Positions 2,849-12,805 of a stretch of DNA of 13,409 nucleotides are shown piece by piece (position 1 is the first letter of the stretch; the number at the start of each line of letters is the position of its first letter). The stretch covers positions 1-13,409 of the forward strand of contig JAATGH010000204.1 in the NCBI GenBank assembly GCA_015654745.1, written 5' to 3'. The notes beneath the pieces were generated by a model, which was given only the letters and a program-made list of their open reading frames with translations, did not search any database and was not told the origin of the DNA. Source of the DNA: Enterobacterales bacterium (GTDB taxonomy: Bacteria; Pseudomonadota; Gammaproteobacteria; Enterobacterales; Enterobacteriaceae). A program made the position numbers and the translations under genes.

Positions 2849-3658
2849 CTATATTGCCCGGAGCACCACGATCCCCGGCGTCTTCTTGATATAGGCCAGA
2901 AAGGGCGAGTCCACGACTTTCCGATGCGCCGCGCGGGACGATGCGTTGCGTAATACCGGTCCCCGGTCGGTCATGATAAAAATACCGGTATGGGTCACAT
3001 CCATTCCAGCCATCGGGGTATAGATACCGATAAAGTCGCCGCTTCTTAGCCGACCGACGACGGCACTGTTGACCGCCTTGGCCGGTATGTAGGTGATGGC
3101 TCGCGTCTCGACGCCCAACGAGGGAAATACCCTGCCGCCGTCGGCGGTTTGATTGAGCGCCTTAACGATGGTGACGGCGCTGGGGCTGATGGCGCGGGTG
3201 ATATCCGTGGCGTTTAGGGGTGGCAAAGATGACCAGTCGGTAAAAAATTGCTTGCGGTGAGCGTAGCTGACGTCGCCATCGATATACCGGGTCTGCTTGA
3301 GCCGATCGTTAAATTGGTCGGCGTTGGCGGATTTACTCAGCGCATCGACATAGTCGAGATAGGTGAAACAATCGACCCCGCGAAAATCGATGACCAACCG
3401 TTCGGCTACGCGGTCCGATCCCACCAGCCGGTTCGCGACGTAGGGAGTTCCTAAAAAGTCGGCGGAAATGGTCGTGATGCGCTCGCCCAGGCTGTTCTCC
3501 CGCCCGTTGACGCGAAGGTCCGCCACGATCGCGTCGATTTTGGTGAGGGTGTAGCTATCGATATCCGCCGGTTGCGCGCCGGCCTGCGCCATGGGTTGGT
3601 GGCTGGCGGCGCATCCCAGAAGTGAAACCGCCAGCAATGCTGGCATATATTTTCGCAT
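2849..3658 (-). CDS. DUF1460-family lipoprotein with an NlpC/P60-like papain fold. Putative peptidoglycan (MurNAc-L-Ala) amidase or peptidase, about 269 aa.
   Basis: The start was moved from the ORF-track ATG at 3685 to the ATG at 3658. The 3658 start is preceded by GGGAGGAGG 4 nt upstream, and the protein then begins MRKYMPALLAVSLLGCAAS, a lipoprotein signal with lipobox LLGC. Candidate Cys/His catalytic pair lies in GVDCFTYLDY and DVTHTGIFI. The family assignment is from memory of the Pfam DUF1460 / AmiA-like family, not from a search. Confidence 0.5.
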   Translation of the reverse strand: MRKYMPALLAVSLLGCAASHQPMAQAGAQPADIDSYTLTKIDAIVADLRVNGRENSLGERITTISADFLGTPYVANRLVGSDRVAERLVIDFRGVDCFTYLDYVDALSKSANADQFNDRLKQTRYIDGDVSYAHRKQFFTDWSSLPPLNATDITRAISPSAVTIVKALNQTADGGRVFPSLGVETRAITYIPAKAVNSAVVGRLRSGDFIGIYTPMAGMDVTHTGIFIMTDRGPVLRNASSRAAHRKVVDSPFLAYIKKTPGIVVLRAI

Positions 3659-3750
3659 GTCCTCCTCCCTAGAGGGCGTTGGCATGGCGGCCGTTAACCG
3701 TCACCGTGACAAAACCGCGCTATGTTACCGCGCCGGGCCGTTGCCGGAAA

Positions 3751-5715
3751 TCATTTTCGCAGCGGGATATCCGGCGGTTCCTGAGCCCCCAAGGGCTCGT
3801 CAAAGCGCAGCAGTCGCCCCGCATTGCCCAATACCAGAAGGGTGCTGAGATTATGCAGTACCGCCGCGATCATCGCCCCGCCGGCGCCAAGTAGACCAAA
3901 CGCCGCCGCGGCGACGATCAGCAGCGTCCACCCCAAACCGATCAATACATTGACCTGTAGCGTATGCCGGCACCGGCGGCTAAGTCGTACACAGGTACCG
4001 AGACGGCGCAAATCGTCGCCGATCAGCACCACGTCCGCCGACGCCAGAGCGATATCGGCGCCGCCCATGGCCACACCCACAACGCCCGCTTTCAACGCCA
4101 GGGAGTCGTTGATACCGTCGCCAACCACCATCGGCCGGAAACCTTGGCGAATTTCCGCGCCAACGCAGCGTAATTTATCCTCAGGCAACGCCTGGGCAAT
4201 CACCTGGTCAATCCCCACATCGGCCGCAATACGGCTGGCGACCCGCAGTCGATCGCCGGTCAGCAACAGTTGCCGCCGGAGACCCAGTTGGCGTAGTTCG
4301 GCCAGCGCCCGCGCCGCCTCGGGGCGCACCGTATCCGCCAGCAGCAGCCAGGCGCAAAATCGTCCGTTAAGCGCCAGACCGACAATGGGTCCGTCATGAT
4401 CGGGGATCGCGGCGGTACTCATGCCCCGCTGTTCAAACAGTTCGGCCCGGCCTAGCACGACCTCGCCCAGCCCGCTGTCGGCGACGACTCCGAGCCCCTG
4501 CAGTTCAATGATATTCTCCAGCGCGGGATAGTCATGTCGAGGCACCAACGCGGCGAGCGCGCGACTGATAGGGTGGTTACTGGTCGCGCCCAGACCGGCG
4601 GCCACGCGCTGGAGCTGGTCCAGGTCTGTGCCCGGCTGTGGGCGGATCGCGTGCAGGCGCAGCGCGCCATGGGTCAGCGTGCCGGTTTTATCGATCACCA
4701 GAGAGGTGAGATCCGCCAGTTCTTCGAGAAAGGCCGCGCTGCGGATCAATATCCCGTGCCGGGCGGCAACCGCCAGCCCGGCGATGGCCGTGGCCGGCGC
4801 CGACAAGACCAGGGCGCAGGGGCAGGCGGCGACCAGAACCGCCAGCATGGCCTGGGCATTGTTGGTAATAAACCAGGTCGTCGCGGCAATCATCAGCACC
4901 AGTATCAGATACCGTCCGGCATATCGCTCCAATAGCCGGACAATGGGCGGCTTGGCATGTTCGGCTTGCTGCATCAGGGCAATCACCTTGCCCAGCGTCG
5001 ACCCTTCGCCGATGCGGGTTACTTCAATACGCAGCAGCCCGTCGAGATTGATTGACCCGCCATAAACCTCCTGACCTGCGCATACATCCAGAGGCAACGA
5101 TTCGCCGGTGATCGGCGCAGTATCCAGACTACCCTGCCCCTCCAGCACCCGACCGTCGGCCGGCACCCGATCGCCGGCGCGCACTTCCACCCAATCACCG
5201 GCAACCAGTAAGGCATTATCGATTTCGCAAATATGGCCCTCGGCGTCAATGCGTCTGGCCTGGCTGCGGGTCAGTTGGCCCAGTGCCTCGATGGCCTCTT
5301 GCGAACCGATAACGCTACGCTCCTCCAGCACATGGCCGAAGATCATAATAATGGGCAGCAGCGCGGTGGTTAGCAGATCACCGCTGGCCCAGGCACAGAG
5401 CATGGCCAAGGCAATCAGCTGATCGGTAATACCGTGCAGGCTGGGATGTCGCAGGCTATGCCAGGCGGAGCGGAACACCGGCAGCGCCACCAGCAGCGCG
5501 GCGCTGCCCAGCAGTAATTGGCCTACGCCCTGCTGCTCGGGAGCGTACCCGCGCCACAGCAACCCGAGGATCAGCAGCCCCGAGGCAATCATGGCCAGGC
5601 TAAGCTGGCGTGCCACGCTGAGCCGTTCCGCCCGGGTCAGCATCGTCGCGGTGAGATGGGTATGATGATGCCCATGGCCGTCGCGGGAGGAAGAAGACGT
5701 AGCTGACCTGCTCAT
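3751..5715 (-). CDS. P1B-type heavy-metal translocating P-type ATPase, 654 aa. It has a His-rich N-terminal tail and no HMA (CxxC) domain.
   Basis: Phosphorylation motif DKTGTLT. Hinge motif GDGINDSLALKAG. Actuator-domain TGES. Transmembrane CPC motif in the context ACPCALVLSAP. HP dipeptide (SNHPIS). Eight predicted TM helices. N-terminus MSRSATSSSSRDGHGHHHTH. The start ATG at 5715..5713 overlaps the upstream gene's TGA (ATGA overlap). Confidence 0.9.
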   Translation of the reverse strand: MSRSATSSSSRDGHGHHHTHLTATMLTRAERLSVARQLSLAMIASGLLILGLLWRGYAPEQQGVGQLLLGSAALLVALPVFRSAWHSLRHPSLHGITDQLIALAMLCAWASGDLLTTALLPIIMIFGHVLEERSVIGSQEAIEALGQLTRSQARRIDAEGHICEIDNALLVAGDWVEVRAGDRVPADGRVLEGQGSLDTAPITGESLPLDVCAGQEVYGGSINLDGLLRIEVTRIGEGSTLGKVIALMQQAEHAKPPIVRLLERYAGRYLILVLMIAATTWFITNNAQAMLAVLVAACPCALVLSAPATAIAGLAVAARHGILIRSAAFLEELADLTSLVIDKTGTLTHGALRLHAIRPQPGTDLDQLQRVAAGLGATSNHPISRALAALVPRHDYPALENIIELQGLGVVADSGLGEVVLGRAELFEQRGMSTAAIPDHDGPIVGLALNGRFCAWLLLADTVRPEAARALAELRQLGLRRQLLLTGDRLRVASRIAADVGIDQVIAQALPEDKLRCVGAEIRQGFRPMVVGDGINDSLALKAGVVGVAMGGADIALASADVVLIGDDLRRLGTCVRLSRRCRHTLQVNVLIGLGWTLLIVAAAAFGLLGAGGAMIAAVLHNLSTLLVLGNAGRLLRFDEPLGAQEPPDIPLRK

Positions 5716-6776
5716 TTTTTGGTAGGCTCCCGAGGCTCAGCGCCCTGCAAAATCAGTTGGGCATCGTCGCCCGGATTGATAACGGTGACCGAACCGGCCT
5801 TGGCGAAAAGAGTCGCCACCCTGGCGCGATAAAGACGCCAAAGCATTCCCGGGTCGTTTCCACTTCGCTGCGTCTGCGCCAAGTTACTGATATCCGCAGT
5901 CTGCGCTTGAGCACGGGCCATACGTTCACTGGCGCCGGCGTAGGCAACCTGCAGCGTGCGATCGGCGTTTTGGGCCGCGGCCTGGGTCTGCCGCGCCGCA
6001 TCGTTTTGCGCCATGGCGATAGCCTGTTCAGCCCGTTGGCTGGCGGTCAGCACGGCGTTAAAGGCATCCACCGCTTCATTTGGCAACGATGACTGTACGT
6101 CTACCCGTTCTATTTCAATGCCCAGCCCGCCGCCGGCGGTGGCCAACGCATCAAGGCTGCGGTTTATCGCCTGTTGCAAATCGCCGCGCAGCCGCTCACG
6201 GCGCTGGGCCGCGCCGCTGTCACCGCTTACCAGTTCCGGCCGGGCAACCAGGATCGTGTCAAGATCGCGCGAGGCGCAGACCATTACCGCCGCGCGTTCC
6301 ACCAACCGGTTTAGCGCGGGTTCAACATGACTGTCCTCCAGCACCCAGGCATAGGGGTCGGTGATGCGGTAAAAGACGCGGACATCCAGCTGCGCCACGC
6401 CCGCGTCGCCGGTGAGCAAATAACCGGATCCGGCGAGTGCGTCGCCGCTCATGCTGATGTCATAGCGGATCTCGCGCGCTTGGTCCGACCGTAGCAGCGC
6501 TTCCACCCGATGTTCGATAACCCTTCCCGGCGAAGGAAGTATCACTACCTGTTCAAACGGCCGTGGCCACGCCCAAAGCAACCCGGCATGTTCAATACGT
6601 TGCATTGCCCCGAAACGCAGAACCACCGCCTGACTGTCGGGATTGATTTGGCGCACATTGGATATCAGCCAGCCGCACGCGGCCAGCAGCGTCAGCGCGT
6701 ACAGCGCCAGAAACACCAGCCGGCCCGTCTGGATCCAGGGTCCCTGTGGATTCGGCCCTCTCTCCGGCCGGTTCAC
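5712..6776 (-). CDS. SPFH/Band-7 (HflK/HflC-like) membrane protein, 354 aa, with a GTG start.
   Basis: N-terminal TM anchor (LVFLALYALTLLAACGWLI), then an SPFH core (AVVLRFGAMQRIEHAGLLWAWPRPFEQV ... DVRVFYRITDPYAWV) and an Ala/Gln-rich coiled C-terminus. The GTG start at 6776..6774 overlaps the upstream stop (GTGA). A GAGGGA Shine-Dalgarno sits 8 nt upstream. Confidence 0.75.
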   Translation of the reverse strand: MNRPERGPNPQGPWIQTGRLVFLALYALTLLAACGWLISNVRQINPDSQAVVLRFGAMQRIEHAGLLWAWPRPFEQVVILPSPGRVIEHRVEALLRSDQAREIRYDISMSGDALAGSGYLLTGDAGVAQLDVRVFYRITDPYAWVLEDSHVEPALNRLVERAAVMVCASRDLDTILVARPELVSGDSGAAQRRERLRGDLQQAINRSLDALATAGGGLGIEIERVDVQSSLPNEAVDAFNAVLTASQRAEQAIAMAQNDAARQTQAAAQNADRTLQVAYAGASERMARAQAQTADISNLAQTQRSGNDPGMLWRLYRARVATLFAKAGSVTVINPGDDAQLILQGAEPREPTKK

Positions 6777-8017
6777 GGATGCGATCCCTCGGCGGGGGCA
6801 TCGGATGCGGCCCCCGCTGCGGCGGCCGGCGGCCGGTGTCCTGTGGGTGGCGCCGGCTGCGGCGCGGAGGGGGCTATCGGTTGCACTGCGCCACTGGTGA
6901 TGGGTAAGCGCGGCGGGCCGTCAACCAGCACGCGAAACGGCGCGGCGTCGGTACGCAAAACCAGACGGGTAGCGGGAGTAATCAAGGTGCCCAGGGTATC
7001 CAGAGAGCGCAGCAGGTTATATAACTCTGGCGAGCTGGCGTAGGCTTTGCCATAGATATCCGCTGACTCGACCTGCGATCGTGCTTCGATGGCGGCGGCC
7101 TTTACCGTAGCATCGGCTTGTATGATGCGGGCGTCTCGTTCCGCGCCCGAGCGGATTTCCGCCGCCTTGCGCTTCCCTTCCGCCGTGCGTTCGGTGGCGA
7201 TGGTCTCGCGTTCGGCGCGCATGCGATCGACCGTGGCGCCCAGGGTCACCGCCGGCAACGTCAGGCGTTCGATGCCCACGCTGATTAACCGTATTCCGTA
7301 ACTGTCTCGTAGGGGCTGCTCAATCTGCGCGCGTAGGCGTTGTTAAACCTGCGCAAGCTGTACCCGGGCGGGATCGGTGTTCACCAGTCGGTCCAACGCA
7401 AAACCGCTGGTCGTGGTTTCCAGCGCCGATCCGACAAAAGTGCGGATTTGCCGGGCCGCTTCATCCGGCTGATTTTGTACCGCGCGCATAAATCGTTCCA
7501 CATGCCCCGGATCGGCCTGTACCTGCCAAACCGCGTAAGCCTGGATGATAATGCGCAGACCATCGCGGGTGCCAACGTCCTGCAGGCCGCTGGACGTCGT
7601 GCGTAGTCGCAAATCAACCGGGATGGCGGTCTCGAAGGGCATCGGCCAGCGCCAGGCGATGCCCGGCTTAAGCAGCACCCGCACGGGATTACCAAAGCGG
7701 GTGATAACCGTGGCCTCCCCCGAACGAACCTGCACCAGACTGGCGGCGGCGGCAATCACCATGACCAGCGCGACGGCCAGTCCCACGCGCCGCCGCCGCG
7801 ATGCGGGAGTGAGCATTGCGTCATGGTCATGGTCATGGTCATGGTCATGGTCATGGTCATGGTCATGGTCATGGTCATGGTCATGGTCATGGAAGGAATG
7901 GTGCCCTCCATGATCTCCGTGTTCACCATCGTGTTCCGGTGGCTGACCGGAACGGGAGGATATCTGACTCAAAGAAGGTCTCCGGCATCGATTACTGGTT
8001 ATCAATAGACTGGCCAT
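6773..8017 (-). pseudogene. HflK/HflC-like SPFH gene encoding an N-terminal His/Asp-rich tail that includes (HD)12. It is interrupted by a single in-frame TAA at 7345..7343. The ORF track splits it into a 224-aa and a 168-aa ORF.
   Basis: The two track ORFs (7343..8017 and 6773..7279) are in the same frame, separated by exactly 21 sense codons after the TAA. My translation reads ...ARVQLAQV*QRLRAQIEQPLRDSYGIRLISVGIERLTLPAV.... The upstream part has a TM segment plus the SPFH N-terminus (ATVITRFGNPVRVLLKPGIAWRWPMPFE). The downstream part is a typical HflC C-terminal half (VDRMRAERE...AIEARSQVESADIYGKAYASSPELYNLLRSLDTLGTLI). A read-through product would be about 414 aa. This could be a nonsense mutation, a sequencing error or read-through, and I cannot distinguish these from sequence alone. 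Confidence 0.6.
7821..7892. repeat. Perfect hexanucleotide tandem repeat (TCATGG)x12. On the minus strand it reads CATGAC, encoding (His-Asp)12.
   Basis: Seen directly: 72 bp of uninterrupted TCATGG. The flanking minus-strand codons are degenerate copies (gaa cac gat ggt gaa cac gga gat cat gga ggg cac cat = EHDGEHGDHGGHH). It lies inside the 5' part of the interrupted SPFH gene. The plus-strand ORFs reading SWSW..., HGHG... and VMVM... are frame shadows of this tract. Confidence 0.95.
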
Positions 8018-10019
8018 TTGGCGCGTCCGGTCGCTGCGGCGGCGGCGGTCCTAACGGCTGCTTTGCCTGGGGTTTGCCCACATCTGGACCCGCCGCGCCG
8101 GCATCGATCGGCGCGCTGAAATTTCTCAAATCAAGGGTGGGCGACGCGCCCGCGCTGATACGATGATCAAGCAGCAACATGGGCGTATTGGCCAGCGCCT
8201 GGCTAAGACGGCTGAAATAGGTCTCACTAAGAAAGGCTTGTCCGGCAGTTCGCCATGCCTGGCGTTGTGCGGTGAAACGCAGCTCCGCCGCGCGGGCGCC
8301 GGCGATATTCTCATGCGCACCCGCATCGGCCCGATCGGCGCGCATGCCGGCATCGAGCCGGGCGGCGCTGAGCAGCGCTGACGCATTGCCACCTTCGCGC
8401 GCAACCAGCGCCTGCGCCGCGATCTGCGCCGCCTGCACCCCATGGTAAGCATTGGCGGCTCCTGCCGGGGGATGGATAGCCTCAATGACGATGGCCAACA
8501 TTTCCACCCCGCTATTTAGGGCATCCAGCCGGTCTTGCACCTGACGGTGAATATTGTCGGCCAGACCCGCACGCTGGCTGCCCAACACGCCATCGAGCGT
8601 CAAAGACGCAAACTCGCGCACCAATATCTGATTGGCGGTGCTGCGGATTAACGAAGGAATATCGGCGCTGTTGTAGGCGGATGCCAGCGCCGCCGTATCG
8701 GTTAAACCGACGCGATAGATAAAACGCACATCCATATCGACGATCTGAAAGCTTTGCGCATTACCCATGTCGCTGGCAATAACCTGTGATTTCTCATTGC
8801 CGTGAACGCCATCCCACAGCCGGTTGGCGCTCTGTGGCGCGTCGCCTTCCGCCGCCACCGGCTCCTGATGCGCTTCCCCTGCCGCCACCAGCGTGGTCAG
8901 TTCATGCACTTCGCCATTTTCCACTGGCAATACGCGGCCGAACGGCCAGGGTAAACCCACATGCAGACCGGGAACCCATACCGCCGCGGGCTTGCCGAAA
9001 CGTTCATAAATACCGCGGCCGTTAACGGCGACTTCGCTAACGCCCGTCAGCATCCAGGCCACCAGCATCAATAGGATCAGCACCGGCGCAAACGCCCGCC
9101 GCATAAACGAAAAGGCCCAGACCTGGCGAAGATCGATACCAAAACGCTGCTTAATGTCCTCTTGTAGCGACGCCATAGATTGCGGCGGCCAACGCAGTTG
9201 GCCGGCGATAAAACTTGCGCCGATAAGCCGCGGCTCCTGACCAGGCCGTTGGGGATAAAAGAGGGAAAACAGCGCCCTGCCGGCGATTTCCAGCGCCACC
9301 AGCGCCGGTAATAGGCCGGTGAACATGGCCAGGTATGCCGGCCAGGGCAACGACGCGTCGGAAAACCATAAACAAAGCGCACACAACAGCGCCACGGCGA
9401 TCGCCACCCGGAGAAAGGGACCCAGGACCGCGGCCTCCGGCCACTCGGCTTCGGTGAGGGAGGCGAGGTAGCGCTCGAACAGCACTAAGGCAACGGCGGA
9501 CAAGAGCAGCAGGCCGGCGCCGACGTTAATCATCCTGCCGGGACCGGCGCTGGGTATGGCCAACCGCCATCCCAGAAAGACCATCAGCAACGCCAGCAGC
9601 GACAGCCCGATGATCCACAGCGCATCGGTGCCGACGCGCTGCCCATATTTTGCCAGGCGGTCAAGTCCGGCGCTCAGCCAGGTCAGTTTGGCCATACTGT
9701 CGACTACTGGGCCATCGGCGCCGCCCGCCGATGGCGCTGCCATAGACAGCAACGCGGCCGCCCGCCAGCGGGTCACGCCCCAGGCGGACTGAAACATCGC
9801 GATCAGCACCAGCAATACCGCGCTGATATTGCACAGGACCGGCAACCCTATTGAATCGGCGGCGTAAACATCAAACACCAGCGCGATGACGATCAACAGA
9901 CCACAAAGATTGCCCAACCCGAGCAGTAGCCAATACAGCCGCCGCGCCTGCCATTCAGCCTGCAGAAAACGCGGGAGCCGTGCCGGGCTCGCCTGCTCAT
10001 GCTCTGAATTATCGTCCAT
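7992..10019 (-). CDS. Fusion protein of about 675 aa. An N-terminal polytopic membrane domain of about 300 aa (roughly 6 TM, family not recognised) is followed by an SPFH/Band-7 domain and an Ala/Pro-rich C-terminal tail.
   Basis: SPFH core: SEVAVNGRGIYERFGKPAAVWVPGLHVGLPWPFGRV ... FQIVDMDVRFIYRV. The C-terminus is HflK-like and Ala-rich, ending in PPPPQRPDAPNGQ. I prefer the start ATG at 10019..10017, which has GGAG 5 nt upstream. The ORF-track ATG at 10079 has no SD. The 3' end overlaps the next SPFH gene's start by 26 nt. Confidence 0.65.
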   Translation of the reverse strand: MDDNSEHEQASPARLPRFLQAEWQARRLYWLLLGLGNLCGLLIVIALVFDVYAADSIGLPVLCNISAVLLVLIAMFQSAWGVTRWRAAALLSMAAPSAGGADGPVVDSMAKLTWLSAGLDRLAKYGQRVGTDALWIIGLSLLALLMVFLGWRLAIPSAGPGRMINVGAGLLLLSAVALVLFERYLASLTEAEWPEAAVLGPFLRVAIAVALLCALCLWFSDASLPWPAYLAMFTGLLPALVALEIAGRALFSLFYPQRPGQEPRLIGASFIAGQLRWPPQSMASLQEDIKQRFGIDLRQVWAFSFMRRAFAPVLILLMLVAWMLTGVSEVAVNGRGIYERFGKPAAVWVPGLHVGLPWPFGRVLPVENGEVHELTTLVAAGEAHQEPVAAEGDAPQSANRLWDGVHGNEKSQVIASDMGNAQSFQIVDMDVRFIYRVGLTDTAALASAYNSADIPSLIRSTANQILVREFASLTLDGVLGSQRAGLADNIHRQVQDRLDALNSGVEMLAIVIEAIHPPAGAANAYHGVQAAQIAAQALVAREGGNASALLSAARLDAGMRADRADAGAHENIAGARAAELRFTAQRQAWRTAGQAFLSETYFSRLSQALANTPMLLLDHRISAGASPTLDLRNFSAPIDAGAAGPDVGKPQAKQPLGPPPPQRPDAPNGQSIDNQ

Positions 10020-10079
10020 GATCGCTCCGAAGCATGCCGGGGCGACATCCGCAACTTGCCATCGTTTGGCCAACGCCAT

Positions 10080-10236
10080 GAATACAGTGAACGCTGTGCA
10101 TTATAGGAGATCGTCGTGAGTATTTAGCGTAACTTTATAACATCACTAAATACCCGAAAACAGCTTTATTACCAAAACTATGTAACCATACATATAGTTA
10201 GGAACATGCTAGGTTTATGCCCGCCACGCATAAACG
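10080..10236 (-). promoter_or_regulatory. AT-rich 157-bp intergenic region upstream of the SPFH-SPFH-SPFH-ATPase cluster. Probable promoter region.
   Basis: A perfect TATAAT on the minus strand (plus coordinates 10105..10100) sits 20 nt before the ORF-track ATG at 10079 and about 80 nt before the SD-supported ATG at 10019. No good -35 or TG extension. AT-rich in an otherwise GC-rich locus. Confidence 0.3.
10214..10234. other. Perfect inverted repeat TTTATGC-N7-GCATAAA, 3 nt downstream of the ABC ATPase stop codon.
   Basis: Seen directly. The stem is 7 bp and AT-rich, and no U-tract follows on the minus-strand transcript. It is therefore not a canonical intrinsic terminator. It could be a weak hairpin or a protein-binding palindrome. 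Confidence 0.3.
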
Positions 10237-11016
10237 TTAAAGCATATGCCGCCGGGCTTCGACGCGCACCAGGTGCAGGATTTGCTGCTTGATCACAGTG
10301 TAGCCCGGCGCCTGCGCCAGGGTTTCGATATTCCGGTCCCGGCCGAAGGGTAAAATCACTTCATCGACTATTTTGCCCGGCCGCGCGGACATCACCAAAA
10401 TCCGATCGGCGAGAAACAGCGCCTCTTCCACATCGTGGGTAACAAATAAAATCGTCGTGCCGGTCTGCCGCCAGGCATCCCGCAACAGTTCCTGCATCAT
10501 CATTCGTGTTTGCGCGTCCAGCGCCCCAAAGGGTTCATCCATTAACAGCACCTCCGGGTCCGGCAGCCAGGCCCGAGCCAGGGCCACCCGCTGTTTCATC
10601 CCGCCGGACAGTTGCCATGGCGCATGCTGGCCAAAGCCGTCCAAACCCACCCGTGTGAGCCAATCGCCAGCCTGGGCATTGGCCTCGGCTTTCTTTAACC
10701 CGGCCATGCGCGGGCCAAAGGAGATATTGTCCAATACCGATAGCCAGGGAAAAAGATTGGGCTGCTGGAACACCATGCCACGACTCGGATGCGGGCCGCG
10801 CACCGGACGACCGGCGCAAAGGATCCGCCCCTGCTGCGCAAGGGTAAAACCGGCAATCAGGTTCAGTATGGTGGACTTACCGCAGCCGGAAGGGCCGAGC
10901 AGCACCACGAATTCACCTTGGTCCAAGGCGAGCGACACATCGTCCAGTACCCTCAGCGCCTGGGGTTGCCCGGAGAATGTCAGCGTGACGTGCTCCAGGG
11001 TAATATGCTGCGTCAT
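10237..11016 (-). CDS. ABC transporter ATP-binding protein of the NitT/TauT family (TauB/SsuB-like), about 260 aa.
   Basis: Walker A LLGPSGCGKST. Q-loop. ABC signature LSGGMKQRVALARA. Walker B LLMDEPFGALD. H-loop VTHD. The ORF-track 398-aa version is over-extended into the permease gene. The real start is the ATG at 11016..11014, which has GGAAGGA 4-5 nt upstream and forms an ATGA overlap with the permease stop. Confidence 0.85.
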   Translation of the reverse strand: MTQHITLEHVTLTFSGQPQALRVLDDVSLALDQGEFVVLLGPSGCGKSTILNLIAGFTLAQQGRILCAGRPVRGPHPSRGMVFQQPNLFPWLSVLDNISFGPRMAGLKKAEANAQAGDWLTRVGLDGFGQHAPWQLSGGMKQRVALARAWLPDPEVLLMDEPFGALDAQTRMMMQELLRDAWRQTGTTILFVTHDVEEALFLADRILVMSARPGKIVDEVILPFGRDRNIETLAQAPGYTVIKQQILHLVRVEARRHML

Positions 11017-11786
11017 GCGTCCTTCCCTGCCCAGGGTACTAGCCATTTTTGCAATCCCACAATCAGTAAATCCAGTAAATAGCCAATGGCGCCCAGCAGC
11101 AGGATGCCAATCATCACGATATCGGTGCGCAAATAGGCACTGGCGTTGATCACCATCCATCCTAAGCCCGAGGTAGCCGCCACCAGTTCGGCGGCAATCA
11201 GCGAGGTCCAACCGACGCCTATGGACAGCCGCACGCTGGTAAACAGCTCGGGCAACGTATCCGGCAGCACCACGCGCCAAAAAATCTGCCGACGGGAGGC
11301 GCCAAGGGTCTGCGCCACACGGATCCGGGCGCCCCCGATTCGCTCCACCGCGGCGGCGGCGCCCACCACTACGCTTAGGAACGTGGCGATAAAAATCAGG
11401 AAAAATTTCGACGACTCGCCGATACCCAGCCATACCACCGCTAATGGAATCAGGGCGATTTTAGGTAACGGCCGCAAAAACTGGACAAAGGGATTGAGCG
11501 CGGCGGCGATCGGCTGCGACAATCCCATCAGCAGGCCCAGGGGAATGCCGCAGGCGATGGCCACGGTAAAGGCGCTGAGCGCGCGTGCCAGGCTAATGGC
11601 AATATGCTGCCATAACGGTACCTGACGGTAGCCGTCATGGAGCAGCTCAACGGTGGTTTCAGCAATATCGGAGAGCGGAGGCAGCAATAAGGGGTCGACC
11701 CAATGGCGTACTCCGGCGACTTGCCACAGCAGAAAAAACAGCGTCACCGAGACGACGCTGATAGCAACATGATTAACCGCTTTCAT
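11013..11786 (-). CDS. ABC transporter permease of the TauC/SsuC family (binding-protein-dependent inner-membrane component), 257 aa.
   Basis: Six predicted TM helices and an EAA-like loop region (ALSAFTVAIACGIPLGLLMG...). It lies 8 nt downstream of the SBP gene and is ATGA-coupled to the ATPase gene. Confidence 0.8.
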   Translation of the reverse strand: MKAVNHVAISVVSVTLFFLLWQVAGVRHWVDPLLLPPLSDIAETTVELLHDGYRQVPLWQHIAISLARALSAFTVAIACGIPLGLLMGLSQPIAAALNPFVQFLRPLPKIALIPLAVVWLGIGESSKFFLIFIATFLSVVVGAAAAVERIGGARIRVAQTLGASRRQIFWRVVLPDTLPELFTSVRLSIGVGWTSLIAAELVAATSGLGWMVINASAYLRTDIVMIGILLLGAIGYLLDLLIVGLQKWLVPWAGKDA

Positions 11787-11794
11787 AAGTGTGG

Positions 11795-12805
11795 TTATTT
11801 ACCCGCGGCCTGGCGAATAAAACTCGAATCGATGGCGTCTTTCCAGGTGGTGGGGATATCGCGTTTACGCACATCACCGGTACTTTCCAGAAAATGGGCG
11901 GTTTTATCCACCGCTTGGCCAATGCCGCTGCGATCGGTATCGGTGCCGTCGCCCAGCCAGGCGGCGGTGCCCTGCTCGGCAATGGACGGATATTCCAGAC
12001 CCGCCAACGTATTGGTGGCGGTGCTTACCGGCGCGCCAACCTCCTTGGCGACGATAGCGGCGGCAGCCTCGGGATTGCGACGGAACTCATCGACTTTTTG
12101 CTGATGCACTTTGAGGAAATTGATTACCACCTGGGGATATTGTTGGGCGAACGCTTTGCGCACCACATAGTTGTTATAAATAAGATAACCATCTTTCTGC
12201 AGATCTTTGGTGGCAAATACCTGATGGCCGCCTGAGGCCTCCAGCTCTTGGGCGAAGGGCGCCCAAACATAACCGGCGTCGATATCGCCGCGTTTCCAGG
12301 CCGCCACCATTTCCGCCGGGCGCAGAGGGATCAGGGTGATTTTGCTGCGATCAAGCTTATGTACGGCGATCGCCGCTTCCAGCGCATACTGGGACGTGGA
12401 ATTAGGTGGATAACCTACCCGTTTGCCTTCTATATCCTGCAGCCGGTTGATACCCTGCTTGCCAATCAAACGTTCATAGGTGGCGATGACGCCGGACACG
12501 CCGACGATTTCCACCGGCAGCTTACGCACGATGCCGGCGGTGGCCGGGCTGGAGCCGAAGTTGGCAATATCGATGGCATCACTGGCGAAAAAATTCAGCG
12601 CATCGGCGCCCGAGGCGAACTGTACCCATTTAACGTGGGTGCCCAGCGCCTTTTCCAGCGAACCGTCCTTTTTGGCCAGCAGTATCACCTGCGAACCACC
12701 GCTATAGGCAATGCGCACTTCATCCGGCAGCGCCGCAGCGTGAGCCTGGGCCAAAGTGACCAATACACCGGCGGCGCCGAGTATGGCCGTCATTATTTTA
12801 CGCAT
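11795..12805 (-). CDS. Periplasmic substrate-binding protein of the taurine/aliphatic-sulfonate/nitrate (NMT1/TauA/SsuA) family, 336 aa.
   Basis: Sec signal peptide MRKIMTAILGAAGVLVTLAQAHA. AGGGGA Shine-Dalgarno 6 nt before the ATG at 12805. Motifs resemble E. coli TauA as I recall it: NFGSSP...PVEIV, AAWKRGDIDAGYVWAP, YVVRKAFAQQYPQVV. No tauD/ssuD-type oxygenase lies in the window, so the substrate is unassigned. Confidence 0.7.
   Translation of the reverse strand: MRKIMTAILGAAGVLVTLAQAHAAALPDEVRIAYSGGSQVILLAKKDGSLEKALGTHVKWVQFASGADALNFFASDAIDIANFGSSPATAGIVRKLPVEIVGVSGVIATYERLIGKQGINRLQDIEGKRVGYPPNSTSQYALEAAIAVHKLDRSKITLIPLRPAEMVAAWKRGDIDAGYVWAPFAQELEASGGHQVFATKDLQKDGYLIYNNYVVRKAFAQQYPQVVINFLKVHQQKVDEFRRNPEAAAAIVAKEVGAPVSTATNTLAGLEYPSIAEQGTAAWLGDGTDTDRSGIGQAVDKTAHFLESTGDVRKRDIPTTWKDAIDSSFIRQAAGK

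What the first reader, a model, noticed from the sequence alone, without database searches (positions are those of the whole stretch)
3751..10236. Tightly coupled cluster of three SPFH (HflK/HflC-like) paralogs and a P1B heavy-metal ATPase
Four co-directional genes follow a single AT-rich upstream region: a 6TM-SPFH fusion, then an SPFH with an (HD)12 tail, then an SPFH, then a P-type ATPase. They are joined by a 26-nt overlap (8017/7992), a GTGA start/stop overlap (6776/6773) and an ATGA overlap (5715/5712), the classic signature of translational coupling and stoichiometric co-expression. SPFH proteins are established to form large membrane cages around partner proteins such as FtsH (HflK/C). 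Here three paralogs are locked to a metal pump. Both the second SPFH and the ATPase carry His-rich cytoplasmic N-termini. I do not know of a described system with this architecture. By inference, it may be an SPFH-caged or scaffolded metal efflux or uptake module. The fact that only one of the three SPFH genes carries a stop suggests recent disruption of an otherwise intact system.
Basis: partly seen in the sequence, partly recalled or inferred. Interest (0 to 1): 0.85.

Follow-up and report, generated by a model that had tools for sequence, protein, structure and literature searches.

The report
Zinc-starvation pump with three SPFH partners
This is an enterobacterial-type copy of a gene cluster already known in Pseudomonas aeruginosa (PA2439-PA2435, the hmtA locus): three HflK/HflC-like membrane-scaffold genes joined to a zinc/copper P-type pump behind a zinc-repressor site; how scaffold and pump work together has never been studied.

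Summary
Four co-directional minus-strand genes encode a 7-TM HflK-like SPFH protein (A), an HflC-like SPFH protein with a His-rich cytosolic tail (B), an HflK-like SPFH protein (C) and a P1B ATPase (D). The B/C (GTGA) and C/D (ATGA) overlaps are real.

It is not an undescribed architecture. A/B/C/D are 50/73/65/76% identical to P. aeruginosa PA2439/PA2438/PA2437/PA2435 (HmtA). That locus is induced by zinc starvation, and purified Zur shifts its promoter. The window carries TGTTATAAAGTTACG upstream of A, one base different from the PA2439 upstream sequence.

The four-gene order holds in 80/80 Pseudomonas species loci, Sodalis, and Rhizobium, Burkholderia and Klebsiella plasmids. On plasmids the linkage is 11/11 in both directions.

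Two details fail.
- The 26-nt A/B overlap is probably an ORF artefact. TTG at 7972 has a GGAG in front and matches where orthologues start.
- The in-frame TAA is absent from an independent assembly, which reads GAA like all 83 orthologues. "Recent disruption" is therefore unsupported.

Zinc/copper acquisition fits the evidence better than efflux. A physical SPFH-pump complex remains an untested inference, supported by the His tail sitting on B, D or both, never neither. This is a new member of a known but mechanistically unexplored kind.

The parts
10129..10141 (-). Zur-box-like operator GTTATAAAGTTAC. In context it reads TGTTATAAAGTTACG.
   Evidence: It is the only match in the window, with 0.01 expected by chance. 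The motif GTTATANNGTWAC lies 38-166 nt upstream of gene A in 79/80 Pseudomonas loci, against 8 hits elsewhere in 1.7 Mb. The P. aeruginosa PA2439 upstream region has TGTTATAAAGTTGCG, and Zur shifts that promoter in EMSA (PMC8531726). Binding in this organism is inferred.
10120..10153 (.). 34-bp element. A perfect 8-nt inverted repeat (GTATTTAG / CTAAATAC) brackets the Zur-like box.
   Evidence: I2. Its function is inferred: it may be an extended operator.
10100..10105 (-). Perfect TATAAT hexamer 23 nt downstream of the box. It is a candidate -10 element.
   Evidence: Read from the sequence. The consensus scanner found no full promoter on this strand because no good -35 is present, so this is tentative.
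7992..10019 (-). Gene A, the PA2439/PaFlo orthologue (675 aa). It has an N-in polytopic domain of 6 TM helices plus the SPFH anchor TM, then a periplasmic HflK-like SPFH and coiled-coil region.
   Evidence: Band_7 at E 4.6e-18 and hflK TIGR01933 at 54 bits, below the 159-bit cutoff. Start at M21 by homology and GGAG. TM prediction. 50% identity to PA2439. N-domain model has pLDDT 75.7.
6773..7972 (-). Gene B, the PA2438 orthologue (399 aa if read through). It has a cytosolic His-rich tail, one TM helix and a periplasmic HflC-like SPFH domain. The probable start is TTG 7972; the ORF is open to ATG 8017.
   Evidence: Band_7 at E 5.6e-20; hflC TIGR01932 at 61 bits for the C-terminal half. 73% identity to PA2438. 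Start site argued.
7820..7892 (-). Perfect hexanucleotide repeat (CATGAC)x12 encoding (HD)12 in the cytosolic tail of B.
   Evidence: TRF reports 12.2 copies at 100% match. Both Logan contigs end inside it, so the copy number is not independently confirmed.
7343..7345 (-). In-frame TAA in gene B. It is a single G>T change from GAA.
   Evidence: All 83 orthologues have Glu here (61 GAA, 22 GAG). Logan contig L086 has G at 7345.
5712..6776 (-). Gene C, the PA2437 orthologue (354 aa). It has one TM helix and a periplasmic HflK-like SPFH domain with a long coiled coil. Its GTG start overlaps the TGA stop of B.
   Evidence: Band_7 at E 1.9e-19; TIGR01933 at 92 bits, below cutoff. 65% identity to PA2437. 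The model's best Foldseek hits are HflK/C chains of FtsH-HflKC cages, though the model itself is of low confidence (pLDDT 62). Junction read.
3751..5715 (-). Gene D, the HmtA (PA2435) orthologue (654 aa). It is an 8-TM P1B ATPase with a short His-rich N-tail, CPC in M4 and HNLST in M6. Its ATG overlaps the TGA stop of C.
   Evidence: TIGR01525 at 508 bits. 76% identity to PA2435. Motifs are invariant or nearly so in 85 orthologues. Nearest solved structure is the P1B-4 pump 7qbz. Junction read.

Best explanation
The window holds an orthologue of the Pseudomonas aeruginosa PA2439-PA2438-PA2437-PA2435 (hmtA) locus, apparently in an Enterobacterales-type genome.

**Regulation (inferred for this organism).** Zinc-loaded Zur sits on the TGTTATAAAGTTACG box in the AT-rich leader and keeps the four genes off. 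Under zinc starvation they are transcribed as one unit. B/C and C/D are translationally coupled through NTGA overlaps.

**The pump.** The product is a P1B-type pump of the HmtA type. The literature reports that HmtA raises cellular zinc and copper.

**The SPFH assembly (inferred, not shown).** A and C are HflK-like and B is HflC-like. Their SPFH and coiled-coil parts face the periplasm. By analogy with the HflK/HflC cage, they would form a mixed oligomeric assembly that holds the pump in a membrane microdomain.

**The His tail (inferred, not shown).** The cytosolic poly-His tail of B would act in trans as the pump's metal-binding arm, receiving or presenting zinc at the cytosolic face.

**What is shown and what is not.** Orthology, conserved linkage and the conserved box are shown here. 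Zinc-starvation induction and Zur binding are shown only in P. aeruginosa. A physical SPFH-pump complex, the role of the His tail and the direction of transport are all inference.
For: **Orthology**
- Identity to the PA2439/38/37/35 proteins is 50/73/65/76%.
- Gene order is the same in a P. aeruginosa contig that continues into the Pfam 'PA14_33160' gene.

**Linkage**
- A-B-C-D are adjacent in that order in 80/80 Pseudomonas species loci (447 species-level genomes hit in all).
- The same holds in Sodalis sp. dw_96, on a Klebsiella conjugative plasmid next to Tn3, on a Rhizobium plasmid, and on a Burkholderia conjugative plasmid between IS elements.
- In PLSDB the 11 records with an A homologue are the same 11 with a D-type ATPase, about 2.2 kb apart.
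- NTGA overlaps are widespread.

**Regulation**
- The box is conserved in 79/80 loci and present once in the window. It differs by one base from the P. aeruginosa sequence.
- PA2437-39 rise 9-14x and hmtA 5.6x in a znuA mutant (PMC4542158).
- Zur shifts the PA2439 promoter only with zinc present (PMC8531726).
- The proteins rise under zinc depletion (PMC11761036).

**Assembly**
- A and C match the hflK model and B the hflC model.
- The C model's top matches are full-length HflK/C, stomatin, prohibitin and erlin cage subunits.
- Predicted topology puts all three SPFH domains in the periplasm.

**His tail in trans**
- A His-rich tail is on B, on D or on both, and never on neither. B only: P. fluorescens group and Burkholderia. 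D mainly: Sodalis and the Klebsiella plasmid. Both: window, P. aeruginosa, Rhizobium.
- A carries six invariant periplasmic His, against none in B and one in C.
Against: - No experiment links the SPFH proteins to HmtA.
- The P. aeruginosa triple SPFH deletion had only slight phenotypes. It was not tested under zinc limitation (PMC13086221).
- In one study hmtA mRNA stayed low and did not respond to zinc (PMC8531726).
- In P. aeruginosa an extra gene (PA2436) separates PA2437 from hmtA.
- The import claim for HmtA rests on heterologous overexpression, and reviewers call it unconfirmed (PMC10393844). P1B pumps are otherwise exporters, and the nearest solved relative is an exporter.
- The box is a weak Zur match: E = 0.11 in PMC4542158. 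Its right half departs from the palindrome.
- No canonical -35/-10 pair was found by the scanner.
- The Sodalis locus lacks an exact motif match.
- The C model has low confidence (pLDDT 62).
Confidence: 0.55

Rival explanations
1. The three SPFH proteins are alternative HflK/HflC-type modulators of the zinc metalloprotease FtsH, made under zinc starvation. The pump is only co-regulated, or is placed nearby to keep FtsH supplied with zinc.
For: The only bacterial client established for HflK/HflC is FtsH. A/C and B match the hflK and hflC models, and the C model matches chains from FtsH-HflKC complexes best. Authors of the zinc studies annotate the genes as FtsH modulators (PMC9431628, PMC11761036).
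Against: - All three score far below the equivalog cutoffs (54-92 bits against 134-159).
- The locus is not in the hfq-hflX-hflKC context.
- P. aeruginosa keeps canonical hflKC as well (PMC13086221).
- The trio travels with the ATPase, not with ftsH, across alpha-, beta- and gammaproteobacteria and on plasmids.
- This reading does not explain the His tail swapping between B and D.
Confidence: 0.2
2. This is a metal efflux or resistance module. The pump exports zinc, cadmium, cobalt or copper, and the SPFH proteins stabilise it.
For: P1B ATPases are typically exporters. The closest solved structures are exporters: 7qbz P1B-4, 4umv ZntA and CopA. The His-rich tails are cytosolic, as in exporter metal-binding domains. 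The module occurs on conjugative plasmids beside transposons, as resistance determinants often do.
Against: - The upstream box is of Zur type and there is no MerR/ArsR-type sensor gene next to the module.
- In P. aeruginosa the locus goes up when zinc is scarce (PMC4542158, PMC11761036).
- HmtA overexpression increases zinc/copper content and sensitivity (Lewinson 2009, as summarised in PMC10393844 and PMC8456098).
- The M4/M6 signature (CPC plus HNLST) fits none of the exporter subgroups tested.
Confidence: 0.12
3. The module is decaying in this genome. Gene B is a fresh pseudogene and the system is non-functional here.
For: The window sequence has TAA at 7343-7345 in frame.
Against: - The Logan assembly of SRR10968246 matches the window at 2748 of 2749 positions and reads GAA at that codon.
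- A second difference from Logan is also G>T, which suggests an error or a minor variant.
- The rest of B is intact and 73% identical to PA2438.
- A, C and D are intact.
Confidence: 0.1

Closest known systems
Pseudomonas aeruginosa PA2439-PA2434 locus (hmtA cluster; SPFH genes PaFlo5-7, PA14_33070/33080/33110)
   Same: The gene order is the same: large HflK-like, His-tailed HflC-like, HflK-like, then the P1B ATPase HmtA. Identity is 50/73/65/76%. The upstream box is nearly identical, and B/C has the 4-nt overlap.
   Different: The window lacks PA2436 (144 aa, between PA2437 and hmtA) and PA2434 (DUF4946), as do most Pseudomonas loci. C/D overlap directly here. The His tail of B is a perfect (HD)12 microsatellite. 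The flanks (murP, tauABC) point to an Enterobacterales-type host.
Escherichia coli HflK/HflC-FtsH cage (PDB 7vhp, 7wi3, 9cz2)
   Same: It has type-II membrane SPFH proteins with periplasmic SPFH and coiled-coil regions, a K-like/C-like pairing, and adjacent co-expressed genes. It gives the best structural matches for C and sequence matches for A and C.
   Different: There are three paralogues instead of two. One carries an extra 6-TM domain and one a poly-His tail. All score below the equivalog cutoffs. The genomic partner is a P-type ATPase, not hfq-hflX or ftsH. A has His where HflK has R and F.
Stomatin-type SPFH assemblies bound to transport proteins (for example human stomatin with aquaporin 1, PDB 9zd2)
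   Same: An SPFH oligomer is associated with a membrane transport protein. These entries appear among the structural matches of C.
   Different: These are eukaryotic homo-oligomers on the cytosolic face with no genetic linkage. Here any complex with the pump is only inferred.
P1B-4 ATPase sCoaT (PDB 7qbz/7qc0) and ZntA (4umv)
   Same: 8-TM P1B architecture with TGES, DKTGT, xPC in M4 and an H-x-x-ST type M6 motif. They are the best PDB sequence hits (E 5e-76 and 2e-70).
   Different: M4 is CPC rather than SPC, and M6 is HNLST rather than HEGST. The locus is induced by starvation and HmtA is reported to raise cellular metal, whereas these are exporters.

Membership tests
PA2439-PA2435 (hmtA / PaFlo5-7) locus orthologues | Four genes in the order large HflK-like, HflC-like, HflK-like, P1B ATPase on one strand | tested here: met
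   The same order is seen in P. aeruginosa L084 and in 80/80 Pseudomonas loci.
PA2439-PA2435 (hmtA / PaFlo5-7) locus orthologues | Each protein is most similar to its positional counterpart | tested here: met
   A-PA2439 50%, B-PA2438 73%, C-PA2437 65%, D-PA2435 76%. Cross-matches are only about 26%.
PA2439-PA2435 (hmtA / PaFlo5-7) locus orthologues | Zur-type box upstream of the first gene | tested here: met
   The motif is present once in the window against 0.01 expected. It is conserved in 79/80 loci and is one base from the P. aeruginosa sequence. Protein binding was not tested.
PA2439-PA2435 (hmtA / PaFlo5-7) locus orthologues | Induction by zinc starvation and Zur binding | not testable with these tools
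   Known only for P. aeruginosa (PMC4542158, PMC8531726, PMC11761036).
P1B heavy-metal P-type ATPases | DKTGT, TGES, GDGxND, S-x-HP, Cys-Pro-x in M4, 8 TM helices | tested here: met
   TIGR01525 at 508 bits against a 346-bit cutoff. Motifs and their conservation. TM segments.
P1B-4 subgroup (SPC in M4, HEGxT in M6) | The subgroup's M4 and M6 signature residues | tested here: not met
   M4 is ACPCALVLSAP in all 85 orthologues and M6 is HNLST in 80 of 85 (HNFST in 3, 2 gapped). The alignment to 7qbz shows SPC and HEGST there.
P1B-2 subgroup (ZntA/CadA type) | CPC together with a D-x-G type M6 motif and a ferredoxin-like N-terminal metal-binding domain (signature recalled from my own knowledge) | tested here: not met
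   CPC is present but M6 is HNLST. There is no HMA domain hit. ZntA models score far below cutoff (264 bits against 1240).
HflK/HflC FtsH modulators | SPFH/Band_7 domain with type-II topology and a long coiled coil | tested here: met
HflK/HflC FtsH modulators | Score above the NCBIfam equivalog cutoffs | tested here: not met
   A 54 bits and C 92 bits against 159.4 (TIGR01933). B 61 bits against 134.4 (TIGR01932).
HflK/HflC FtsH modulators | Complex with FtsH | not testable with these tools
   No interaction data exist for this trio.
Cation diffusion facilitator (CDF/ZnT/YiiP), considered for the N-domain of A | Six-helix TM fold | tested here: inconclusive
Cation diffusion facilitator (CDF/ZnT/YiiP), considered for the N-domain of A | His/Asp metal site in TM2 and TM5 and a cytosolic C-terminal domain (signature recalled from my own knowledge) | tested here: not met
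   The conserved charged residues in the N-domain are E182, E195, R204, E244 and R248. There are no conserved His or Asp in its TM helices. The domain is followed by SPFH rather than a CDF C-terminal domain. There is no Pfam hit.
SPFH-NfeD operons | Adjacent NfeD-family gene | tested here: not met
   No NfeD hit in any window protein.

The most novel reading that the evidence does not exclude
The three SPFH paralogues build a dedicated periplasm-facing cage around the HmtA pump, making it the first bacterial SPFH cage with a transporter as its client. Ring-arrayed invariant His residues of A would capture periplasmic zinc. The poly-His tails of B (or of the pump itself) would form a cytosolic acceptor ring. 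Together they would make a shielded zinc conduit used only under starvation. Alternatively, the cage would retain exported zinc to load periplasmic zinc enzymes.
Probability: 0.25. Interest if true: 0.8.

Novelty: new member of a known kind. Interest (0 to 1): 0.5.

Why it matters
**Why it matters**
- Outside FtsH-HflK/C, the clients and purpose of bacterial SPFH cages are largely unknown.
- This module offers a genetically defined candidate client, a P-type metal pump. The two travel together across three proteobacterial classes and on plasmids.
- It has a clear inducing condition (zinc starvation) and a built-in His tag on B that could be used for purification.
- The zinc literature and the SPFH literature have each described half of the locus without connecting them.
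- Testing the link could also settle whether HmtA really imports metal, which would be an exception among P1B ATPases.

**For this window specifically**
- The result is mostly ordinary: an orthologue of a known locus in another host.
- The apparent pseudogene is probably not real.

Tried and rejected
- **Leader RNA.** Rfam at gathering thresholds found nothing in the window.
- **Canonical sigma-70 promoter upstream of A.** The scanner found none on the minus strand. Only a TATAAT hexamer was read by eye.
- **Intrinsic terminator after D.** The only hairpin (3629-3645) lies inside the next gene's 5' end. Read-through into the AmiA-like gene is therefore not excluded.
- **Recent horizontal acquisition judged from composition.** Module GC is 63% against 54-57% in the flanks, but GC3 is similar (0.68-0.72 against 0.64-0.72). 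I make no such claim.
- **Pseudogene reading of B.** Rejected on the Logan comparison.
- **Suspected decayed DNA at 1-1316.** It is an intact ORF that runs off the window end.
- **Unavailable resources.** The AFDB50 fold library was not available. Lewinson et al. 2009 is not held, so HmtA transport data are cited second-hand from reviews.
- **Untested distant members.** Context look-up was not possible for the distant N-domain representatives. Linkage in those most divergent members is untested.

Full report
**Observation**

The minus strand of the window carries four adjacent genes.

- **Gene A (7992-10019).** It has a Band_7/SPFH domain (E 4.6e-18) behind about 330 residues that match no Pfam family. 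A hydropathy scan gives seven TM segments. The positive-inside pattern places the N-terminus in the cytoplasm and the SPFH part in the periplasm. The ORF is open to ATG 10079. However, eleven homologues all start at the position of M21, and a GGAG precedes that ATG.
- **Gene B.** It is read in one frame from 8017 to 6773, with a single TAA at 7343-7345. Its N-terminal part hits Band_7 (E 5.6e-20). Its C-terminal part hits the hflC model.
- **Gene C (5712-6776).** It is a one-TM, HflK-like SPFH protein.
- **Gene D (3751-5715).** It is a P1B heavy-metal ATPase (TIGR01525 at 508 bits).

The GTGA and ATGA start/stop overlaps are in the sequence. The (HD)12 tract is a perfect hexanucleotide repeat. 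The leader 10020-10236 is 44.7% GC, against 63% for the module.

**Two details that need correction**

*The start of B.* B most likely starts at TTG 7972, not ATG 8017.
- GGAG lies 7 nt upstream of the TTG. Nothing similar precedes the ATG.
- The TTG aligns with the 'LSQSH...' start region of the Pseudomonas orthologues.
- A and B are therefore separated by 19 nt rather than overlapping by 26 nt.

*The stop codon in B.*
- All 83 orthologues examined have Glu at that codon (61 GAA, 22 GAG).
- A Logan contig assembled from run SRR10968246 matches the window at 2748 of 2749 positions. The single difference is window position 7345, where Logan has G, giving GAA.
- A second Logan contig differs from the window at one position in 3036, again G>T (10271).
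- The stop is therefore an assembly or sequencing error, or a minor variant. It is not evidence of decay.
- Both Logan contigs end inside the (HD) repeat, so its copy number is also unconfirmed.

**What it is**

- Homologues of A are abundant in Pseudomonas (about 50-55% identity) and present in Sodalis-like Enterobacterales.
- A scan of species-representative genomes found relatives in 447 genomes. In all 80 loci returned, B, C and D homologues follow A immediately and in the same order.
- A homologue of C annotated from P. aeruginosa led to a contig with genes of 666, 343, 346, 144, 661 and 151 aa. The next gene hits the Pfam family named PA14_33160. This is the PA2439-PA2434 region.
- The window proteins are 50, 73, 65 and 76% identical to PA2439, PA2438, PA2437 and PA2435 (HmtA).
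- The window lacks PA2436 and PA2434, as do most Pseudomonas loci, where C abuts D.

**What is already known about that locus**

- In a P. aeruginosa znuA mutant, PA2437-39 rise 9-14-fold and hmtA 5.6-fold. A weak Zur site was predicted for the PA2434-PA2439 cluster (PMC4542158).
- Purified Zur shifts the PA2439 promoter, fully only with zinc present. [quoted passage not shown] In the same study, hmtA mRNA stayed low and unresponsive to zinc (PMC8531726).
- Proteomics found HmtA, PA2438 and PA2439 raised under zinc depletion (PMC11761036).
- A chelating drug induces PA2437-39 along with the rest of the Zur regulon (PMC9431628).
- HmtA is described as a P-type ATPase whose overexpression raises zinc and copper content and sensitivity. 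Reviewers note that the import claim needs confirmation (PMC10393844, PMC8456098). I could not read the original paper.
- A 2026 study named the three SPFH genes PaFlo5-7 and noted their patchy, probably horizontal distribution. Their triple deletion gave only slight phenotypes. That study never mentions HmtA, and mentions zinc only once, when describing FtsH.
- No open-access paper co-mentions HmtA and SPFH. The two works that co-mention HmtA and HflK only list the genes.

**Regulatory site**

- The motif GTTATANNGTWAC lies 38-166 nt upstream of A in 79 of 80 Pseudomonas loci. It occurs only 8 times elsewhere in 1.7 Mb.
- The Pseudomonas consensus is cGTTATATcGTAACg, preceded by AAAATTTCAC.
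- The window has exactly one match, GTTATAAAGTTAC at 10129-10141, against 0.01 expected by chance.
- In context it reads TGTTATAAAGTTACG. P. aeruginosa has TGTTATAAAGTTGCG upstream of PA2439.
- Its left half matches the experimentally defined Zur site GCGTTATAGTATATCAT quoted in PMC8456098.
- In the window the box is bracketed by a perfect 8-nt inverted repeat and followed by a TATAAT.
- Zur control in this organism is an inference from these matches.

**Strength of the linkage**

- The module also sits on a conjugative Klebsiella aerogenes plasmid beside a Tn3 transposase, on Rhizobium plasmids, and on a conjugative Burkholderia ubonensis plasmid between IS elements. B/C and C/D show 4-nt overlaps there too.
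- Among 72,556 plasmid records, 11 hold an A-family gene. The same 11 hold the only D-type ATPases at E <= 1e-60, about 2.2 kb away on the same strand.
- An NTGA overlap is available at B/C in 72 of 82 loci and at C/D in 60 of 82.
- The N-domain of A defines about 300 clusters at 50% identity. Full-length members are almost all 600-700 aa, so this domain is essentially always fused to SPFH.

**Anatomy that bears on mechanism**

*The pump (D).*
- TGES, ACPCALVLSAP, DKTGT and FGHVLEERS are invariant in all 85 orthologues. GDGINDS (82 of 85) and HNLSTLLVLGNAGRLL (80 of 85) are nearly invariant.
- Its nearest solved relative is the P1B-4 exporter 7qbz, which has SPC and HEGST at the corresponding sites.
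- HmtA-type pumps therefore form their own signature group: CPC plus HN(x)ST.

*The His-rich tail.*
- B carries a His-rich cytosolic tail in all 80 Pseudomonas loci, and in Rhizobium and Burkholderia.
- D carries one in only about a quarter of loci.
- Where B's tail is weak or absent, D's is rich: Sodalis dw_96 and the Klebsiella plasmid.
- No locus lacks both.
- This either/or/both pattern is what one expects if the two tails serve the same site, meaning B and D act together. That is an inference.

*Periplasmic His in A.*
- A has six invariant periplasmic His. B has none and C has one.
- E. coli HflK has Arg and Phe where A has H516 and H526.

*Structure models.*
- The C model is of low confidence (pLDDT 62). 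It shows the SPFH core and a 73-residue helix. It matches HflK/C cage subunits best, then stomatin, prohibitin and erlin.

**Most likely working model**

1. Zur-Zn represses the operon.
2. Under zinc starvation all four proteins are made in coupled amounts.
3. A, B and C assemble into an HflK/C-like mixed oligomer on the periplasmic face.
4. That oligomer holds HmtA in place.
5. His-rich tails at the cytosolic face accept or present metal.

Orthology, linkage and the conserved box are shown here. Regulation is shown only in P. aeruginosa. The complex, the role of the tails and the transport direction are inferred.

**Rivals**

- *An FtsH-directed role of the trio.* It is plausible by homology. 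It does not explain co-transfer with the pump, and canonical hflKC is also present in P. aeruginosa.
- *An efflux module.* It fits the general behaviour of P1B pumps and the plasmid context. It does not fit the starvation response.
- *A decaying locus.* It is contradicted by the second assembly.

**Verdict**

The architecture is already on record in P. aeruginosa, so this is a new member of a known kind. The idea worth carrying forward is the untested SPFH-pump partnership, now backed by the two-way linkage and the His-tail complementarity.

Noticed in passing
window 7345 and 10271: These are the only two differences between the window and two Logan contigs of run SRR10968246 (5.8 kb compared). 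Both are G>T on the minus strand. One creates the TAA in gene B and the other changes Arg to Leu near the end of tauB. The shared direction suggests a damage or assembly artefact, or a minor strain variant.
   Followed up: partly
window 7820-7892: The perfect (CATGAC)12 microsatellite encodes (HD)12. Both Logan contigs break inside it, so its length is unverified. Orthologues have irregular His-rich tails instead, and P. aeruginosa has a shorter HD run. The tract could vary in length by slippage without a frameshift.
   Followed up: partly
window 10120-10153 and 10100-10105: A perfect 8-nt inverted repeat brackets the Zur-like box, forming a 34-bp element. A perfect TATAAT lies 23 nt downstream of the box. 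The real promoter was not located.
   Followed up: partly
window 10213-10235: A hairpin (GTTTATGC, 7-nt loop, GCATAAAC) lies directly after the tauB stop. It has no T-run, so it is at most a weak terminator.
   Followed up: no
window 2849-3685 and 1317-2762: Immediately downstream of the pump, on the same strand, lie a PF07313 AmiA-like lipoprotein gene (E 1.5e-75) and a murP-like PTS EIIBC gene (67% nt identity to E. coli murP). This looks like a peptidoglycan-recycling pair. No convincing terminator separates it from gene D.
   Followed up: partly
window 1-~1240 (minus strand): An uninterrupted ORF runs off the left end of the window. It has a signal peptide, and by eye it resembles a pectin-lyase-fold/GH28 protein. 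No family search was run on it. The ORF lister omits it because it is cut by the window edge.
   Followed up: no
window 10237-12805: A tauABC-like ABC transporter lies upstream. The 398-aa 'tauB' ORF overlaps tauC and is an ORF-calling artefact. The ABC domain begins at residue 163, and a start near 11013 fits better.
   Followed up: no
gene A, residues 353, 372, 406, 516, 526, 619 (numbered from the ATG at 10019): These six periplasmic His are invariant in 82 loci spanning alpha-, beta- and gammaproteobacteria. B has none and C has one. E. coli HflK has R and F at two of the positions. This may be a periplasmic metal site.
   Followed up: partly
L013, L034, L036, L039, L042 (about 19.8-20.5 kb) and L023 (about 11.98 kb, minus strand): Further Zur-like boxes (ATGTTATATTGTTAC) lie about 4 kb downstream of the pump in P. 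syringae/graminis-group loci. L023 has a perfect palindrome, CGTTATATCGTTACGATATAACG. Neighbouring genes there may also be zinc-regulated.
   Followed up: no
L084 7340-7774 and 9875-10330: P. aeruginosa carries two extra small genes in the cluster: PA2436 (144 aa, no Pfam hit) and PA2434 (DUF4946). Both are absent from the window and from most Pseudomonas loci.
   Followed up: partly
L087, L089: On the Klebsiella aerogenes and Burkholderia ubonensis conjugative plasmids the four-gene module is flanked by Tn3, IS5, IS110 and IS66 elements. A there has a shorter N-terminal domain (568 and 631 aa).
   Followed up: partly
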